Shown here: positions 27,910 through 35,300 of the stretch, one piece after another
How the letters are laid out: each line of letters opens with the position of its first letter
How positions within the stretch are numbered: the stretch's first letter is position 1
Assembly: GCA_963708075.1 (NCBI GenBank)
Contig: OY970194.1
Span: forward strand, 448,001 to 512,000
Length of the DNA stretch: 64,000 bases
Direction: 5' to 3'
Source of the DNA: Sedimentisphaerales bacterium
Lineage (GTDB): Bacteria; Planctomycetota; Phycisphaerae; Sedimentisphaerales; Anaerobacaceae
Made by a program: the position numbers and the translations under genes
The notes under the pieces: generated by a model
Seen by the model: only the letters and a program-made list of their open reading frames with translations
Database searches by the model: none
What the model was told of the DNA's origin: nothing

Positions 27910-28099
27910 GAGCGGCTCCCCAAGCCATCCTTTATTCTCTTGGGGTGAGCCGAAGACTCATGACCGGCTTCACGCGAACGACATGTGGCAGCCTTGCCAT
28001 GTTTCGTTGTGTTAGAGGCTGCTGGTGTGATAGAGTAGTTGCATCGTTCGCAAGCGACATCCGTAGAAACGAGATCCTGTTCTGATTGTGAGGCGCCGT

Positions 28100-29359
28100 A
28101 TGCTGCAAATCCTCCGTACCGCACGACTCTCACTGTGCCTTGTGCTTTTCGCAGCCACGCTGAGGCTCCATGCCGCCGAGCCGTTGCAGGTCACTCTGAC
28201 CGATGTTGCGGAGAACGTTTACATCGAATCGCTGCACCTGACGAGCGACCAGGTGACGCCCGACTGTCCCCACTCCTGGTCCGTGCGCAAATATGTCCTG
28301 CACGGCGGCAGGCAGGAGGGTGTGGAAGTGATCGACGTCGATAACGGCAAGCTTCGTCTCCGCGTCGTCCCGACCCGCGGCATGTCCGTGCAGAACGTCG
28401 TCTCGGGGGACCTCCGGCTCGGCTGGGATTCGCCCGTCAAAGACATGGTCCACCCGGGGCTAGTGAACCTCGAATCGCGTCAGGGGCTGGGTTGGCTGGA
28501 GGGTTTCAACGAGTGGATGGTGCGATGCGGCCTGGAGTTCTTCGGCGGTCCCGGGACCGACGAGTTCATCGACAACACGGGCAACAAAGCCAAAATGGAC
28601 CTGACCCTGCATGGCAAGATCGGCAACATCCCCGCCTCAATGGTGCAGGTGGTGGTTGATCGCGCGGAGCCGTACGAGATCCGGATTCGCGGCAGGGTGG
28701 AGGAAACCTGCATGCACGGCCCGAAGCTGGAGCTGTGGACAGAGCTCTCGACGCGGGCCGGCTCGGACGCCTTCCGTATCTCCGACAAAATCACTAACCG
28801 CAGCGCCAAAGAGCAGGAGTTCGGGGTCCTGTACCATGCGAACTACGGCCCGCCCCTGATGGAGGAGAACGCCCGGTTTATCGGACCGGTCAAGCGGATC
28901 GCCCCGATCAACCCCAATGCCGCGGCTGATGTCTCCAGTTATGACGTCTGCCGGGGCCCGTCGCCCGGCGTGGCCGAGCAGGTCTACTGCCTGTGGTTGT
29001 GGGCTGACCAGAGCGACCGCACGAAGATCATGTTTCGAAACGCCCGGGGCGACAAAGCGGTTGTCATGGCTTTCTCCGTGAAAGAGCTGCCGTACTTCAC
29101 GATCTGGAAGAACCCCGTCGCTCTCGAAGATGGGTACGTCACCGGCCTGGAACCGGGCACGGGCTTCCCCCGCAACAGGTCCATCGAGCGAAAGTCCGGC
29201 CGCGTCCCCGTCCTGGGCCCCCATCAGAGCCGCACGTTCACCCTCGATTTCCTCATGCTCGCCGACGCAACCCGGATCGCCGAAACCGCCCGCGAGATCG
29301 CGAGGATCCAAGCCGACCGCAAAACCCAGATCGACGAAAAGCCCCTGCCCCTGGAGTAA
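28100..29359 (+). CDS. Aldose 1-epimerase-like protein (DUF4432/YihR type), secreted
   Basis: LHGGRQEGV, VVPTRGM, LGWDSP, LHGKIGNIPA, YHANYGPP, GYVTGLEPGT. Confidence 0.85.
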   Translation: MLQILRTARLSLCLVLFAATLRLHAAEPLQVTLTDVAENVYIESLHLTSDQVTPDCPHSWSVRKYVLHGGRQEGVEVIDVDNGKLRLRVVPTRGMSVQNVVSGDLRLGWDSPVKDMVHPGLVNLESRQGLGWLEGFNEWMVRCGLEFFGGPGTDEFIDNTGNKAKMDLTLHGKIGNIPASMVQVVVDRAEPYEIRIRGRVEETCMHGPKLELWTELSTRAGSDAFRISDKITNRSAKEQEFGVLYHANYGPPLMEENARFIGPVKRIAPINPNAAADVSSYDVCRGPSPGVAEQVYCLWLWADQSDRTKIMFRNARGDKAVVMAFSVKELPYFTIWKNPVALEDGYVTGLEPGTGFPRNRSIERKSGRVPVLGPHQSRTFTLDFLMLADATRIAETAREIARIQADRKTQIDEKPLPLE

Positions 29360-29491
29360 CCCGCTGCATCTGCCTCTGCCGCCCATTGACAATCGGACCA
29401 CGGGCAGGCAACATGGGCGTCCATGGTCGGGACTGTGCGAGAGTTGGATATCGATGCCGTGCACCAAGCCCGCATCAGCGGCACCACGGAT

Positions 29492-29860
29492 TGGCAGGGG
29501 CGATTCGCGTCGTTTGCGATGGATGAGCGATACCTGCTGCGGGCGGCACGGTACGTGGAGTTGAATCCGGTCCGGGCGAAGCTGTGTCGGGTTCCGTGGC
29601 GGTGGCGCTGGTCGAGTGCGGCCGCTCACATGAGCGGACGCGATGACGGCCTGGTGCGAGTGGCACCTTTGCTGGAGCGCGTGAAGGATTGGCGGGAGTT
29701 CCTGACCGCGGCCCTGACGGCAGACGAAGCCGAGTTGTTGCGGCGTCACGGGCGGACGGGGCGGCCTCTGGGCGAAGCGGCCTTTCTGGATCGGATCGAA
29801 CGAAGGCTTCATCGAATCGTACGGCCGGCCAAACGCGGCCCAAAACCCATGGAGAAATAA
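29492..29860 (+). pseudogene. C-terminal fragment of a RAYT-like Y1 transposase
   Basis: WQGRFASF...ARYVELNPVRA...WRWSSAAAH...TGRPLG; the N-terminal HUH half is absent. Confidence 0.8.
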
Positions 29861-29892
29861 GTATTGTGTCCCTGGAACCCCCCTGGAACCCC

Positions 29893-30108
29893 CAACTGCT
29901 GATCTACGGCGTGTGCCGCTACAGCCGAGCGGGAGAGAGCTTGACCGCGTTGGCGAAACGCTTCGACATCTCACTGAGTGGCCTGACGATGGCCCGCGAC
30001 CGCGCCGAGCAGACGCTTCGTCGGGACAAGAAACTCCTGGAAGCCTGGTCGCAGATCGAACAGAGCCTTAAAGCACTGCGATGAATGTGAAATGTGTAGG
30101 TGTGACCC
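29893..30108 (+). mobile_element. 216-bp duplicate of the 3' end and right terminal repeat of the element at 30631-31766
   Basis: Matches 31551-31766, with one mismatch seen (caactgct vs caactact). Confidence 0.92.
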
Positions 30109-30200
30109 TATGAATCCCGTCAAGATGTGTCTTCTCCACGATAATGCCTTCGGGTGATAGACAGACTTTGCGGAAGTAGTGTTGTCAAGGGAGACTGCCC

Positions 30201-30551
30201 ATGCAGATACGTACAGTCGATGACTTGAAGAATGCGGCATGCATGATGCACGATTCGGAGTTCACGGACGAGAGTTTCGGCCTTGATAGCAGCACACGGA
30301 CGTTCTACATGGAATCGGTGGCTATTGATCCTCCGGGGGAAGTATTTCGGTTGGAGCTATACAATGTGATCGCATGGAACCCAGTGAATCTTGATAAGGT
30401 GAAAGCGGGGAAAGCTCTTGGCGGTGTATTCAACAAGGTCCGCATTAGGCACGGTGGATGCGAGATAGCCATAGTGAGCCAAGATCTTCGTATCGAATTG
30501 GAACTCACCAGCCTCGAGGGACGCTTTACGATCACGAAAGGCCAAGGGTAA
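30201..30551 (+). CDS. Hypothetical 116-aa cargo protein
   Basis: GGAG RBS before ATG; AT-richer than flanks; lies between element ends. Confidence 0.65.
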   Translation: MQIRTVDDLKNAACMMHDSEFTDESFGLDSSTRTFYMESVAIDPPGEVFRLELYNVIAWNPVNLDKVKAGKALGGVFNKVRIRHGGCEIAIVSQDLRIELELTSLEGRFTITKGQG

Positions 30552-30660
30552 GCAGTGAGCTGAAAGGAGCGGAGAACGAGGGACAATGACCTGTGAAAGG
30601 TCCGTACGTGACACACTGATTACGAATACGGGGTCACACCTACACATTTCACATTTGTTC

Positions 30661-30690
30661 TTGACGAGGCCCACGGGTCCGGTGTATTCT
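30661..30690 (+). promoter_or_regulatory. Putative sigma70-type promoter inside the left end, reading into the transposase
   Basis: TTGACG-18 nt-TATTCT; same geometry at 33260-33289 (TTGACC-18 nt-TACTCT). Confidence 0.45.
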
Positions 30691-30731
30691 GGCGGACGTT
30701 GGAGATCTGCTTGTCTGAAAGGAGACTGTGT

Positions 30732-31742
30732 ATGGCTCGTCCGTTGCGGATCGAGTATGCGGGTGCCTGCTATCATGTGATGAATCGGGGCAATGGGCGG
30801 CAGGCCGTGTTCACTGAGGCGAGAGACTATGAGCTGTTCCTGGAGCGGCTGGGCCAGTTCAGCCGGCAGTTCGAGGTGGGGCTGTTGTGCTACTGCTGCA
30901 TGCCGAATCACTTCCATCTGTACCTGCGGACCGAGCAGGCGAATCTCAGCCGCTTCATGCAGAGCCTTCTGACGAGCTTCACGATCAGCCTCAACCGCCG
31001 TCGGCGCAGCCGCGGGCACGTCTTCCAGGGCCGCTTCACGGCCCATCTGGTCGAGAATGACGCCTACGGCGGCGAGGTCTCACGCTACATCCATCTCAAT
31101 CCGGTCCGGACCAAGGCACTGCGGCCGGCGTCCGTGTCGGCCAGACGGCGGGCGCTGCGTGCGTTTGGCTGGTCGAGCTATGCAGCCTGCATCGGCTTGT
31201 CGCCGGGCCCGAAGTGGTTTGATCCCGGGCCGCTTCTGTCGGACTGGGGGGCGAGCCGACGCGTTCAGATGCGGCGATATGGCCAGTACGTCGAGGAAGG
31301 CCTGCTGCGGGAGTTGGACAACCCGCTGGCCCGACTGGAGGGCCAGACGATCCTGGGGACGGAGACCTTCCTTGACCACATTCGGCGGACCTACGTGCTG
31401 ACGCGAAACGCCGATCGGCGAGAGCAGCCGGCGTTCGAGCGGGCCCGGCAGTCGATTCCTTTTGACGCGGTGGCCGGCTGTGTGGGGCGCCACTGCGGAG
31501 TCCGGCCGGAGAGCCTGCTGACGCTGCGCGGCTCGGACCGCCGTGCGAGGCAACTACTGATCTACGGCGTGTGCCGCTACAGCCGAGCGGGAGAGAGCTT
31601 GACCGCGTTGGCGAAACGCTTCGACATCTCACTGAGTGGCCTGACGATGGCCCGCGACCGCGCCGAGCAGACGCTTCGTCGGGACAAGAAACTCCTGGAA
31701 GCCTGGTCGCAGATCGAACAGAGCCTTAAAGCACTGCGATGA
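30732..31742 (+). CDS. RAYT-like Y1 (HUH) tyrosine transposase with C-terminal HTH
   Basis: MARPLRIEYAGACYHVMNRGNGRQAVF, MPNHFHL (HUH), GHVFQGRF, RYIHLNPVR (catalytic Tyr), WSSY; C-terminal SLTALAKRFDIS helix-turn-helix. Confidence 0.92.
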   Translation: MARPLRIEYAGACYHVMNRGNGRQAVFTEARDYELFLERLGQFSRQFEVGLLCYCCMPNHFHLYLRTEQANLSRFMQSLLTSFTISLNRRRRSRGHVFQGRFTAHLVENDAYGGEVSRYIHLNPVRTKALRPASVSARRRALRAFGWSSYAACIGLSPGPKWFDPGPLLSDWGASRRVQMRRYGQYVEEGLLRELDNPLARLEGQTILGTETFLDHIRRTYVLTRNADRREQPAFERARQSIPFDAVAGCVGRHCGVRPESLLTLRGSDRRARQLLIYGVCRYSRAGESLTALAKRFDISLSGLTMARDRAEQTLRRDKKLLEAWSQIEQSLKALR

Positions 31743-31769
31743 ATGTGAAATGTGTAGGTGTGACCCTCT

Positions 31770-31985
31770 ATGACAATATCTGGTTGGTTCCGTGATCGTT
31801 GGGATTGGGATTGGGAGAGGCCAAAGCGTATGCGCGATAACCACCAGTACTGGGAGTATGACGATGGTTATCCATTTGCAGTTGTAGGAAATTGGGACGC
31901 ATGGGATTTGACTAATCTCGGCAGGCCTGGCACAACATGGAAATGGACAGAGATGGTCTCCTGGAAGGAGTTCTTCAACTGGTGA
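31770..31985 (+). CDS. Hypothetical Trp-rich 71-aa ORF, possibly the captured C-terminal fragment of a larger gene
   Basis: ATG 4 nt after the right terminal repeat with no RBS; stop immediately before the next ORF. Confidence 0.4.
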   Translation: MTISGWFRDRWDWDWERPKRMRDNHQYWEYDDGYPFAVVGNWDAWDLTNLGRPGTTWKWTEMVSWKEFFNW

Positions 31986-31987
31986 GT

Positions 31988-32522
31988 ATGACAAAGACGG
32001 GCGTATGCACGATGAGGGTCGCAGGGGGCATCTTCCTGTTACTGCTGTTGGCAGCAGGTTTAACGATCCTTGCGATGAGGCCTTTCCTCGGCACACGTGC
32101 CTCATTCAAACGCTTTGTGATTTGCCCGATTCCACGATCTGTCCAGAACATCAAGACGGACCTATGCAGGATATCGTCTCTTCGAGAACCGATGGTGGGA
32201 GGGATACCACGAGCGTGCAGTCATCTTGCGTTTTGAGATCGGTAGAGACGATCTCTTGCGTATAGTTGCAACACGTGGCTTTATGCCTGTGGGCGGCGGT
32301 TCATACATGAGTGAGATACTCACGCCTGTTGGCGATCACTGGGAGATCAAGCTGCCGGACCACGTGCATCACAAGACGCCCCGTTGGTTTGACTTGGCGA
32401 AATGGACGGCTCCGGAGAGCTGGACACTGGAAGAGGTGGACTCGATGCACATGAGCGTTCTGTTTTACAATGGGCAGCTCGGGTGTGCATACCTGGTCAG
32501 GTGGGAGTTGGACAGGGACTGA
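31988..32522 (+). CDS. Hypothetical membrane-anchored protein, frameshift near 32200; paralog of 32604-33203
   Basis: TM then SFKRFVICPIPRSVQNIK; second frame LRFEIGRDDL...PRWFDLAKW...LFYNGQLGCAYLVRWE. Confidence 0.65.
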
Positions 32523-32603
32523 CGACAAGACAGGAATGAGGTCGTGCGATTCCGGCGAAGCGACTAAGACGAGATTGACTGAGCAGACTAAATCCTTGAG
32601 AGA

Positions 32604-33203
32604 ATGAGCATGGCTGAGGAGAAAACGCATGCAGTGAAGCTCGCAGTGCCCATCCTCGTGGCGCTGTTTCTCGTTGTCTGTGGCGCTATCCTCGTGATGA
32701 GGTTCTTTGTCAGTCCTCGGCTGTCGTTCGGACGTTTGGTGGTCAAGCCGATTCCATCATCCGTCCATGACATAAAGCTGAACCGCTGCGAGATGTCCAC
32801 ACGGCGGGCGCGGCTGAACGGGGAGCGGCAATGGGCAGTCGTGCTGCGTTTTGCCGTCAGCAAGGACGACCTCTCGCAAATCATTGCGGCACACGCCCTC
32901 AAACGCGTAGACCTTACCGAGTATACGTATGGGAGACTCCAGTACGGATTCAGGGACGGACCTAACGCCCGGCATTACAGCGAAATAGAGCTGTACAAGA
33001 AGCGTCGTCCCGCTCCGCGTTGGTTTGACTTGGAGCAATGGAGGAACATCGAAACATACGTGTTGGAGCGAGACATTGATGGAGAAGGTTGGATGGATGT
33101 ATGGCTCCTGCTCTATAATGAGCAATCTGGGAGCGCGTACTTCATCCGGTACGAGGGGAACGTAGTTACTATCAGGAGGGGCGAGTTCCAATTTCCGCAA
33201 TAA
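32604..33203 (+). CDS. Hypothetical membrane-anchored protein
   Basis: TM then SFGRLVVKPIPSSVHDIK...LRFAVSKDDL...PRWFDLEQW...LLYNEQSGSAYFIRYE. Confidence 0.75.
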   Translation: MSMAEEKTHAVKLAVPILVALFLVVCGAILVMRFFVSPRLSFGRLVVKPIPSSVHDIKLNRCEMSTRRARLNGERQWAVVLRFAVSKDDLSQIIAAHALKRVDLTEYTYGRLQYGFRDGPNARHYSEIELYKKRRPAPRWFDLEQWRNIETYVLERDIDGEGWMDVWLLLYNEQSGSAYFIRYEGNVVTIRRGEFQFPQ

Positions 33204-33221
33204 AGGGGGTAATAAAGGGGT

Positions 33222-33634
33222 GGGGTCACGTCTTGAATAAGGAATAAGGATCTACTTGCTTGACCTCGCGTCGTGACATGTTGTACTCTGGTGTTCATGG
33301 GGAGGGAAGAAGGGGTCATCCATATAGGGTTCTTGTCAAGTACAAAAATACTCTCCCTGAACCGAAATTTTTACGCCTCTGCCGAGTCGGCGCTTCGGTC
33401 GGGCTCTGTCGGCCTGTGTTTTGCTGCGCGACAATCATCTCACGAACCGCTCCGGGCGTCCGGCTCTGCTTGGCACCTGCGAGTTCTCTCTGGTTTCATT
33501 CGTCGAGTCCGCCTGTCCCCAGGCGGCTCTCTCGCGCAGTCATCCATCCGGATCTAGGCCGGGCGTCACGGGCTAAACCTAGCGGAGGGGCGGTAAACGG
33601 GGTCACGTCCTGAATAAGGAATTACTCGCTTGAC
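33222..33634 (+). repeat. Two direct copies of a second left-end sequence (33222-33264 and 33599-33634)
   Basis: GGGGTCACGTC(T/C)TGAATAAGGAAT...TACT(T/C)GCTTGAC; the second copy precedes a RAYT-like start. Confidence 0.8.
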
Positions 33635-33666
33635 GGCACCGTGCGCGGCGTTGTGCCCTTGCGCTC

Positions 33667-33966
33667 ATGGCACGACCCTTCATCGATCAGGAGGATACGT
33701 TTTATCACGTGCTCAATCGCGGCAATGAGCGGCGGGCCATCTTTCGCGACGAGCACGACTATGAGAGCTTTCTTGACCGGCTGGGCCGGTGCTCGCAGCG
33801 GTTCGGGTTGCGTGTCTTTGCCTATGTGCTCATGGGCAACCACTACCATCTTCTGGTCAAGACGGGCGAAGCGAACCTCTCGGCGGCGATGCAGTGGCTG
33901 CAAGTGGCGTACGGCTCATGGCATAACCGCCGGCACCGGCGAAGCGGGCACCTGTTCCAGGGACGC
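33667..33966 (+). pseudogene. N-terminal fragment of a RAYT-like Y1 transposase
   Basis: MARP...YHVLNRGNERRAIF...MGNHYHLL...SGHLFQGR, after which homology to 30732-31742 stops. Confidence 0.85.
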
Positions 33967-34237
33967 CGCCCATCCCACGTGTCGGGGCAGCGCCATCGGC
34001 AAGCTCCGAGGACTCCGCTTGCCGCTGCCACCCATCGTAAGTCGTGGCTGCATAACAACTTACACCTGTCTTTCGCCTGTGCGCAAAAACGCAGCACTGT
34101 AAGTCTCTTGGCCACAAGGGCTTAGAGGTATTCTTCGCTATGTGACACGAATTCCTGTAACAATCCGGTCCAGCGAGCGTCTCCGTTATATGGTCTAACG
34201 ACCAGTTTCGCCGGGCGCCGGCGAGTCCGGAAAGGCG

Positions 34238-34416
34238 GGTGTGGTCGGCCTTTGGTGGCGGATTCCGGTCTCCGCGTAGGACGAGCGTCCCCGCTCGTCC
34301 ATTGCAGGGATCTGCAATCGACAGGATGTGGTGCGAGGCCATGCGACAAAAGGGGCGAGCGGGGACGCTCACCCTACGAAGAGCGGCACCAATCGCCACC
34401 GTATTCCGACCGCACC
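34238..34416. repeat. Nested palindromic element: outer inverted repeat enclosing a GTAG REP doublet (34276-34377)
   Basis: GGTGTGGTCGG..TGGTGGCG / CGCCACC..CCGACCGCACC outside; GTAGGACGAGCGTCCCCGCTCGTCC / GGGCGAGCGGGGACGCTCACCCTAC inside. Confidence 0.7.
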
Positions 34417-34604
34417 CGGAAAGGCCGTGAGCAGATCAAGAATCAAACATCATCAATCATCAATCGTAAATCATGAATCTCCGGGGGTCTTGCCATGAGC
34501 GGTAAAGCACGCATCGCCGCCGGCGGGCCTGGAAGTGCGGAGTGCGGAGTGCGGAGTGCGGAATGCGGAGTGCGGAGCGAAGGCGGCGAGCGGATGAATG
34601 AGTC

Positions 34605-35121
34605 TGCGAAACAAAGCCAGTCTGGGGCCGGGGGCCTGGGAATGCGGATTGCGGATTGCGGATTGAAGGGCCGGGAGCGGATGAGCGAATGTGCGAAACA
34701 AAGCCAATTGGGCGAATTGGGACGAGGCCAAAGCCTGTCCCCCGAAGCCGGGCAGTGGCGTCGCCACGTGGGGAGGGCCTGTGTGCGAAACAAAGCCAAT
34801 TTCCGTGGTCGGCCCTGCCGATGGGCGCATCGTGCGAAACAAAGCCAATCTAAGGCGTCTCAGGACGACCGTCGCCAATCCTTCGACAAGCTCAGGAAGG
34901 GCGCTTCGCTTGAGGCTGCCACCCGGGATGGGAGGGGGCGATTGTGTGAAACAAAGCCAATCTGCATGGAACAGGCTGAGGGCGGGAGGCCGGAGGGGAT
35001 TGCATGGGTGGTTTTGCGAAACAAAGCCAATGCGGGCCGGGGGCCGGGGAGTGCGGAGTGCGGAGTGCGGAATACGGATTGAAGGCGGCGAGCGGATGAA
35101 TGATTCTGCGAAACAAAGCCA
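34605..35121 (+). repeat. Array of 7 direct repeats TG(C/T)GAAACAAAGCCA with variable spacers
   Basis: Cores start at 34605, 34692, 34784, 34833, 34945, 35015 and 35107. Confidence 0.9.
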
Positions 35122-35300
35122 ATTTGTGGAAGACGGGCACGGGCGGGGCCGCTCGAACCTGGTGGGGGCGTTGTCGTAGGGATAATGTCAATTCGGATGC
35201 CGCCGGACTCGCAAAATTGCGAAATTTGGGCTTTACAAGTACCGGCAGGGGCCTTTATAGTACCCGGTTTGAAAGATATAGTCCCAGGGAGGTCCGAAGT

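What the first reader, a model, noticed from the sequence alone, without database searches (positions are those of the whole stretch)
30631..31766. HUH/Y1 transposase bounded by perfect 25-bp terminal inverted repeats
Seen: exact 25-bp TIRs, the right one overlapping the stop codon by one base, and no obvious target-site duplication (left flank AATACG, right flank TCTATG). Established: IS200/IS605 Y1 elements use subterminal hairpins and lack TIRs; TIRs typify DDE elements. The protein also has an extra C-terminal HTH. Inference: the HTH binds the TIR as dsDNA, implying an unusual Y1 mechanism.
Basis: partly seen in the sequence, partly recalled or inferred. Interest (0 to 1): 0.75.

Follow-up and report, generated by a model that had tools for sequence, protein, structure and literature searches.

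The report
Tyrosine transposon nicking outside its repeats
This is a recently duplicated copy of a named but untested kind of bacterial jumping gene (a tyrosine transposase between inverted repeats), and re-copied scraps at many of its repeat ends start about 10-11 bases outside the repeat, which likely marks where the enzyme cuts.

Summary
In detail: perfect 25-bp inverted repeats frame a 336-aa HUH/Y1 gene with a C-terminal DnaA-like helix-turn-helix domain. The combination is not new. It is a TIRtron/TIRYT (Di Nocera 2013), subclass 2.1 of Quentin 2018, whose mechanism I found untested in print. The unit does not end at the 25-mers. A second 99.6%-identical copy in the genome shares 7 more bases at each end, and sister ends share at most 12. 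No target duplication was found in 30 paired elements. Twenty of the genome's 28 repeat copies have no partner. Short tandem re-copies straddle the outer edge of 16 of 173 sites of this repeat (random DNA: 8 of 5000) and 30 of 150 sites of other families. The 12 long ones start at -13 to -8 (9 fit -10/-11) and end anywhere from +5 to +35. This fits a one-ended nick about 10-11 bases outside each repeat, strand-displacement copying inward, and rejoining; no step is shown biochemically. This scan reported the same family and end stutters before, on other DNA. Binding of the repeat by the helix-turn-helix domain is plausible but untested.

The parts
30620..30630 (+). Left outer tip (-11 to -1). 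The predicted nick lies at its 5' edge (before 30620 or 30621). 30624-30630 is shared with the second genomic copy and 30622-30630 with a 97%-identical copy in run X3.
   Evidence: nick position inferred
30631..30655 (+). Left 25-bp terminal inverted repeat; with the base before it, it reads GGGGTCAC, the TIRtron GGGGWSAS motif
30661..30690 (+). Sigma-70-like promoter match just inside the left repeat; could be repressed by protein bound on the repeat (inferred)
   Evidence: 1 found; shuffle mean 0.3, so weak alone
30732..31742 (+). TIRYT gene, 336 aa: HUH/Y1 core (H60, H62, Y119, N123-P124; WSS 147-149) plus helical tail
31461..31736 (+). C-terminal DnaA-domain-IV-like helix-turn-helix region (about residues 244-335)
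   Evidence: boundaries read from the model's helices
31742..31766 (-). Right 25-bp terminal inverted repeat, overlapping the stop codon by one base
31767..31777 (-). Right outer tip; 31767-31773 is shared with the second genomic copy; nick predicted on the - strand near 31776/31777
   Evidence: nick position inferred
29893..30109 (+). 217-bp copy of the element's 3' end with the right repeat (30084-30108); its inner end abuts the outer tip of a different repeat family
29857..29892 (-). Repeat of a second family ('C', 29857-29872) with a 10-11-nt tandem re-copy of its outer tip (29873-29892), after a 3' fragment of another Y1 gene (ORF 29423-29860)
30109..30623 (+). DNA between two back-to-back repeats, with a 116-aa ORF (30201-30551) that has no Pfam family
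31774..33203 (+). Lower-GC DNA outside the right end: a split (32009-32507) and an intact (32604-33203) copy of a small membrane-protein family that also follows the second element copy
33223..33621 (+). Two left repeats of a third family ('B', at 33223 and 33600), the first with a tandem re-copy of its tip, followed by a truncated B transposase gene (from 33667)

Best explanation
This is a recently duplicated TIRtron, a tyrosine (HUH/Y1) transposase gene between inverted repeats, whose enzyme likely binds each repeat separately through its DnaA-like tail and likely nicks one strand about 10-11 bases outside it, so that host polymerase would copy inward from the nick before the protein-bound 5' end is rejoined. 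Shown: family membership, two near-identical copies in unrelated flanks, homology ending 5-12 bases outside the repeats, no target duplication, many unpaired repeats, and tandem re-copies with a near-fixed start and a variable end. Inferred: the nicked strand is the one that reads GGGTCA into the element, and Tyr119 stays on its 5' end. Rejoining that end to the newly made 3' end gives the re-copies. Joining it to a 3' end elsewhere gives an unpaired repeat or a fragment at a new place. Events at both ends give full copies and the 258-bp miniatures. The ends therefore behave like two back-to-front rolling-circle origins rather than like the paired ends of a cut-and-paste element.
For: Second full copy at G000:6908893-6910042, 5 differences in 1150 nt, identical protein, unrelated flanks. 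A purine-rich, T-poor zone begins at -12/-11 in 178 sites of this repeat and in 150 sites of 11 other families; pooled purines are 0.46-0.53 at -16 to -13 and 0.70-0.82 at -11 to -5. Tandem re-copies starting at -16 to -5 occur at 16 of 173 sites against 8 of 5000 random positions, and at 30 of 150 in other families against 36 of 6436 in a purine-rich worst-case control. The 12 of 325 sites whose re-copy reaches +5 or further have at most 1 nt of microhomology, start at -13 to -8 (9 fit -10 or -11) and end at +5 to +35. In 15 sister-end pairs with unrelated distal flanks no sharing passes -12; genome-wide homology blocks of four families stop at -1 to -13. Foreign pieces abut tips at the same register, e.g. 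the 217-bp fragment at -21 of the C repeat (-11 plus one 10-nt re-copy) and a 200-bp repeat at -27 of G000:215015 (-11 plus a 16-nt re-copy). An independent 97% copy in run X3 shares 9 nt of the left tip and carries a re-copy starting at -10. 20 of 28 repeats in the genome have no inward partner within 6 kb. HUH polarity (5'-phosphotyrosine, free 3'-OH) and a nick-prime-rejoin amplification model are in PMC3333891 (passages).
Against: No cleavage, binding, excision circle or empty site was shown. The two genomic copies share only 7 nt at each end, and 4 of 15 sister pairs share 2 or fewer in register (three involve a 2-nt offset), so a single fixed cut does not explain everything. Most short re-copies end in the repeat's GGG and could be slippage. 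Sites from related genomes are not independent, and some seeds for the other families came from loci where I had already seen re-copies. E. coli TnpA-REP does not cut double-stranded DNA, so local melting must be assumed. Helix-repeat covariation ranks third of 40 windows (0.30; best 0.36 at the N-terminus). Inner flanks of most unpaired repeats do not resemble this element, which one-ended copying from this element alone would not predict.
Confidence: 0.6

Rival explanations
1. The re-copies are polymerase slips at a protein-bound repeat, helped by GGG microhomology. The element moves as a whole, with both ends cut a few bases outside the repeats (about 7), by an unrelated excision-insertion route.
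For: Many short re-copies end at +1 to +3 in the GGG. Both genomic copies share exactly 7 nt at both ends, with GA outermost on each side.
Against: Twelve long re-copies have at most 1 nt of microhomology and still start at -13 to -8. Sharing varies from 5 to 12 nt in most pairs. The GA/GA symmetry is not general: T is 4% at -7. 20 of 28 repeats are unpaired.
Confidence: 0.15
2. The cut is at the repeat's edge, and the 11 purine-rich bases come from the target, for example a primase primer or nascent-strand end that supplies the attacking 3'-OH at a replication fork.
For: The biased zone is about primer length and starts with purines (primer length recalled). It differs between copies.
Against: Sister ends carry up to 11-12 identical tip bases to unrelated loci. 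There is no leading/lagging bias: 33 of 71 repeats read on the leading strand.
Confidence: 0.1
3. The protein is a domesticated repeat-binding editor that maintains the dispersed repeats and splices foreign DNA at their outer edges. The gene's own duplication is incidental, by recombination between repeats or a one-off segmental copy.
For: Repeats outnumber genes (28 repeats, 2 full genes) and occur in 21 of 23 other genomes of the genus. DNA outside the repeats is lower in GC than inside, 0.545 against 0.582 at 70 sites. Repeats of different families cluster: 29 of 71 lie within 2.5 kb of another family, against a mean of 1.9 in 2000 shifts. PMC5581495 treats most RAYTs as domesticated (passages).
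Against: Near-identical full copies with sharp ends sit in unrelated flanks here and in run X3. Broken copies and miniatures are common. The same paper gives group 1 the highest duplication rate among RAYTs proper, 6.3%. This reading shares the nick mechanism and differs only in who benefits.
Confidence: 0.12
4. It is a classical insertion sequence ending exactly at the 25-bp repeats.
For: Perfect repeats, one gene, two copies.
Against: Copies share bases beyond the 25-mers. No target duplication. No DDE domain.
Confidence: 0.03

Closest known systems
TIRtron / TIRYT (Di Nocera, De Gregorio, Rocco 2013, PMC3733652; passages read)
   Same: RAYT-like gene flanked by terminal inverted repeats with GGGGWSAS, repeats overlapping the gene end in some members, and a dispersed family of the repeat in the genome.
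   Different: The passages read give no element ends, no sign of transposition of the whole unit, no cut site and no end re-copies. Figure 9 and the supplements were not seen, so this exact repeat may already be listed.
TnpA-Y1 subclass 2.1 (2.1.2) (Quentin et al. 2018, PMC6006769; abstract and sections 11, 12, 15 part 1, 31 read) = RAYT group 1 (Bertels et al. 2017, PMC5581495; passages)
   Same: NHFH and YIHLNP motifs, SS motif, DnaA-like helix-turn-helix tail, no REP hairpins.
   Different: The paper reports low intragenomic identity (mean 49%) and doubts that the tail reads the repeats. Here two copies encode identical proteins, and the inner part of the repeat matches the DnaA box at 7 of 9 positions.
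TnpA-REP of E. coli with REP/BIME (Ton-Hoang et al. 2012, PMC3333891; passages; structure 4ER8)
   Same: Best structural match (E 6.7e-6). Its proposed nick-prime-rejoin route to tandem amplification is the route inferred here.
   Different: It needs a GTAG-footed single-strand hairpin and cuts at C|T over hundreds of bases. Here there is no hairpin, and the footprint sits at a near-fixed distance with a purine after the cut.
IS200/IS605 (IS608, ISDra2)
   Same: HUH/Y1 fold and no target duplication.
   Different: Those have subterminal hairpins, a Y-x-x-x-Q motif, unlike ends, and strand-specific fork-coupled transposition. Here the ends are symmetric, the motif is YIHLNP, and no strand bias is seen.
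IS91 / ISCR rolling-circle elements (recalled, no call)
   Same: Nick-and-copy initiation, one-ended events and capture of neighbouring DNA are what the footprints resemble.
   Different: Those have distinct ori and ter ends and a different, larger transposase family. This protein hits only Y1_Tnp and has two equivalent ends.

Membership tests
TIRtron / TIRYT | Y1 transposase gene flanked by terminal inverted repeats instead of REPs | tested here: met
TIRtron / TIRYT | GGGGWSAS motif in the repeat | tested here: met
   Left end reads GGGGTCAC (8 of 8), right end AGGGTCAC (7 of 8)
TIRtron / TIRYT | Repeat forms a dispersed family (some members) | tested here: met
   28 matches in the genome, 0 for the reversed control
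TnpA-Y1 subclass 2.1 | NH[YF]H and Y[IV]HLNP motifs, SS motif after the core | tested here: met
   NHFH 59-62, YIHLNP 119-124, WSS 147-149
TnpA-Y1 subclass 2.1 | C-terminal DnaA-like helix-turn-helix domain | tested here: met
   Model matches DnaA-DBD 3PVP, TM 0.85, rmsd 1.9, E 0.018; no Pfam hit for the tail
TnpA-Y1 subclass 2.1 | Placement by the authors' own profiles or tree (2.1.1 or 2.1.2) | not tested
   Their profiles were not fetched; 2.1.2 is inferred from the DnaA-like tail
IS200/IS605 (subclass 1.1) | Y-x-x-x-Q catalytic motif, core-only protein of about 150 aa | tested here: not met
   YIHLNP, 336 aa
IS200/IS605 (subclass 1.1) | Subterminal hairpins, no terminal inverted repeats | tested here: not met
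   Ends fold at -0.6 to -2.2 kcal/mol; perfect inverted repeats present
REPtron (RAYT with GTAG REPs) | GT[AG]G-footed palindromes beside the gene | tested here: not met
   No hairpin at the ends; NF047646 scores 66.5, below its cut-off of 80
DDE insertion sequence | DDE domain and target-site duplication | tested here: not met
IS91 / ISCR | Own transposase family and distinct ori/ter ends | tested here: not met
   Only Y1_Tnp is hit; the ends are identical repeats; the family definition is recalled
TIRtron as an active transposon | Empty site, excised circle or measured transposition | tested here: inconclusive
   Copies in unrelated flanks, but no empty site or circle found

The most novel reading that the evidence does not exclude
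TIRtrons are a separate transposition class: HUH enzymes aimed by a double-strand-binding DnaA-like domain, in which every repeat is an independent nicking origin that joins its 5' end to any free 3' end. Dozens of unpaired repeats per genome, from several families, would then act as standing entry points that stitch foreign genes, here including Rhs-tip and immunity-like genes, into variable arrays without an integrase or target duplication.
Probability: 0.3. Interest if true: 0.8.

Novelty: new member of a known kind. Interest (0 to 1): 0.5.

Why it matters
Subclass 2.1 is the largest group of RAYT-like proteins (14.9% of strains in PMC6006769), yet 'TIRYT' appears in two relevant papers and 'TIRtron' in one in the library searched. 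This element is intact, recently duplicated and has a predicted cut position to within about two bases on a named strand. That makes a simple oligonucleotide cleavage assay decisive for how the class works. An HUH nickase aimed by a swappable double-strand repeat would also be a useful covalent DNA-tagging or joining tool. The repeat-plus-Y1 anatomy itself is ordinary for the group.

Tried and rejected
GA as a 2-bp target duplication (seen in both genomic copies): rejected, because it is not general. Longer target duplications: not above control in 30 elements. Leading/lagging bias: none, 33 of 71. Dedicated Rhs cassette shuffler: not supported as a rule. The only Rhs-like core found in the genome lies 258 bp from a C repeat and 1.2 kb from copy 2, and Rhs-like pieces lie near elements in L143 and L045. 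But none of 95 flanking ORFs hit a toxin or immunity family in Pfam (the Rhs-like ORF itself was not hit either), and only 1 of 9 loci of the neighbouring membrane-protein family in other genomes had such a transposase. Helix-repeat covariation: one search included one mis-paired row (L102), dropped; the result there was inconclusive. Empty site: the upstream DUF4432 gene was not found with this query at E 1e-80 in 23 genus genomes. Excision joints: the joints skipping about 1085 bases in run X3 have 23-26-nt sides and unknown middles, so they probably come from other repeat-bounded DNA and were not used. No RNA holder listed. Rfam: no match at 29300-35200. A single-sequence fold failed (pLDDT 34.6). 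The sequence look-up of earlier findings was blank. Literature searches for a published mechanism found none; subscription journals are mostly missing, and ISfinder could not be searched.

Full report
Observation. The two 25-bp arms at 30631-30655 and 31742-31766 are exact reverse complements, and the right arm overlaps the stop codon by one base. They extend to a 30-bp, 93% repeat. The gene, 30732-31742 from the ATG, encodes 336 aa. It hits Pfam Y1_Tnp above the cut-off and NCBIfam REP_Tyr_transpos below it, 66.5 against 80. H60, H62, Y119, N123 and P124 are invariant in 55 aligned full-length relatives (55 of the 59 listed). The model built on that alignment is confident (pLDDT 89.5). Its best structural match is TnpA-REP 4ER8, followed by IS608 and ISDra2, and the tail matches the DnaA DNA-binding domain bound to its box (3PVP, TM 0.85 on the target, rmsd 1.9, E 0.018). 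The ends form no stable hairpin.

What it is. Di Nocera et al. 2013 (PMC3733652, passages read) named RAYT-like genes flanked by inverted repeats TIRYT and the elements TIRtrons, with a GGGGWSAS motif. The left end here matches that motif at 8 of 8 positions. Quentin et al. 2018 (PMC6006769, named sections read) place 20 of 26 TIRYTs in subclass 2.1, defined by NH[YF]H, Y[IV]HLNP, an SS motif and a helix-turn-helix tail; all are present here. Bertels et al. 2017 (PMC5581495, passages) call this group 1, with 6.3% duplicates. Paired GGGTCA-type repeats frame many relatives in other planctomycete, verrucomicrobial and lentisphaeral contigs. So the anatomy is a known kind. Figure 9 and the supplements of these papers were not seen.

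It has moved. The genome holds a second full copy at 6908893-6910042 with 5 differences in 1150 bases, an identical protein and unrelated flanks. It also holds a 217-bp right-end fragment at window 29893-30109 and two 258-bp miniatures bounded by the same repeat. Of 28 repeat copies, 20 have no inward-facing partner within 6 kb. The repeat occurs in 21 of 23 other genomes of the genus, with no match for the reversed control. A 97%-identical full copy with another left flank lies in run X3. No empty site or circle was found.

Where the ends are. The two genomic copies share 7 bases beyond each 25-mer. In 15 pairs of sister ends with at least 90% inner identity and unrelated distal flanks, sharing never passed -12. 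It ran 5-12 bases in 11 pairs, three of them with one or two mismatches, and 2 or fewer in register in 4 pairs, three of which involve a 2-base offset. Homology blocks for four repeat families in the genome stop at -1 to -13. Thirty paired elements show no target duplication beyond the mismatched-pair control.

The footprint. Across 178 distinct sites of this repeat the outer flank turns purine-rich and T-poor at about -11 (the site list was cut, the position table was seen whole). The same holds for 150 sites of 11 other repeat families. Tandem re-copies that begin at -16 to -5 occur at 16 of 173 sites, against 8 of 5000 random positions and 2-3 sites in three same-width control windows. They occur at 30 of 150 sites of the other families, against 1-6 in control windows and 36 of 6436 in a purine-rich worst-case control. 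Short ones often end in the repeat's GGG and could be slips. The 12 of 325 that reach +5 or further have at most one base of microhomology, start at -13 to -8 (9 fit -10 or -11), and end at +5 to +35. The X3 copy of this very element carries one starting at -10. Other DNA is joined at the same register: the window's 217-bp fragment meets the C-family repeat at -21, which is -11 plus one re-copy. Caveats: related genomes are not independent, some seeds came from loci where I had already seen re-copies, and loose seeds may add chance sites.

How it likely works. HUH enzymes leave a 5'-phosphotyrosine and a free 3'-OH, and a nick-prime-rejoin route to tandem amplification was proposed for E. coli BIMEs (PMC3333891, passages). 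A fixed 5' start with a variable 3' end is what that route leaves if the nick is about 10-11 bases outside the repeat on the strand that reads GGGTCA inward. I infer that the tail binds the double-stranded repeat, the core nicks the locally melted tip, polymerase copies inward, and the tagged end is joined to the new 3' end (re-copy) or to a 3' end elsewhere (unpaired repeat, fragment, or with both ends a full copy). All these steps are inferred. The inner repeat matches the DnaA box at 7 of 9 positions, but helix-repeat covariation in 29 elements was inconclusive. There is no leading/lagging bias (33 of 71). A single fixed cut does not explain why these two copies share only 7 bases; secondary cuts or trimming of the 3' end would be needed.

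Surroundings. Both copies lie in patchworks of repeats from several families, transposase fragments and small genes without Pfam families. In the genome 29 of 71 repeats lie within 2.5 kb of a different family, against a mean of 1.9 and a maximum of 14 in 2000 circular shifts. DNA outside the repeats is lower in GC than inside, 0.545 against 0.582 at 70 sites; accessory regions attract many elements, so this is not proof of capture. Copy 2 sits between an Rhs-like core fragment and an Rhs-like tip (label from recalled motifs; Pfam gave no hit), and window 29376-29495 is 78% identical to that core region. The link did not generalise.

Novelty. The searches found no paper with ends, cut site or mechanism for this class; many subscription papers are missing. 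This scan's earlier notes on other DNA report the same family and end stutters, some with the same cut distance. I read them; they are unchecked and are not counted as support. Two of them report 6-7-bp target duplications in myxobacterial members, which I did not see in this set and did not test on those elements. Verdict: a new member of a known kind, with a sharp and cheap test of an open mechanism. Interest 0.5.

Noticed in passing
G000:C1:5813027-5813284 and 5815413-5815670 (L103): Two 258-bp miniatures with this element's repeats bracket two FGE-sulfatase-domain genes, forming a 2.6-kb composite. The first left tip carries a long array of a 10-nt unit.
   Followed up: partly
G000:C1:6906496-6911676 (L102): Rhs-like core fragment, C-family repeat, small gene, C and B repeats, truncated B gene, copy 2 of this element, Rhs-like tip ORF, membrane-protein gene, then an intact B-family transposase: a scarred toxin/immunity-like array.
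   Followed up: partly
window 32009-32507 and 32604-33203: A split and an intact paralog of a 199-aa membrane-protein family with no Pfam hit; further copies at G000:6907563 and 6579740 and in 7 of 23 genus genomes.
   Followed up: partly
G000:C1:5283338-5285903 (L104): A D-family element with a 527-bp, 97%-identical tandem copy of its left part that ends at -13 of the next repeat, plus a third worn left end.
   Followed up: partly
G000:C1:5610110, 5610218, 6891893, 6900184, 6900563: A repeated unit of about 170 bp that ends in this element's repeat and has no partner end; earlier notes read it as a promoter module.
   Followed up: no
G000:C1:6889037-6889078, 3492898-3492941, 1336394, 5904867: Miniature C-family units of about 60 bp made of two inward-facing repeats only.
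   Followed up: no
L047, L051-L100 (mostly Patescibacteria): Shorter relatives of about 230 aa are flanked on both sides by self-complementary 20-28-nt palindromes instead of GGGTCA repeats.
   Followed up: no
L027, L158, L159, L162, L168 and others: In several families the inner end of the repeat contains TTGAC, a likely -35 box, so repeat binding could repress the transposase promoter.
   Followed up: no
window 34234-35150: Other dispersed repeat families: a unit of about 183 bp with many genomic copies, and low-complexity heptamer-like runs.
   Followed up: no
window 28088-29359: DUF4432 gene just upstream of the array; not found at E 1e-80 in the 23 other genus genomes searched.
   Followed up: partly
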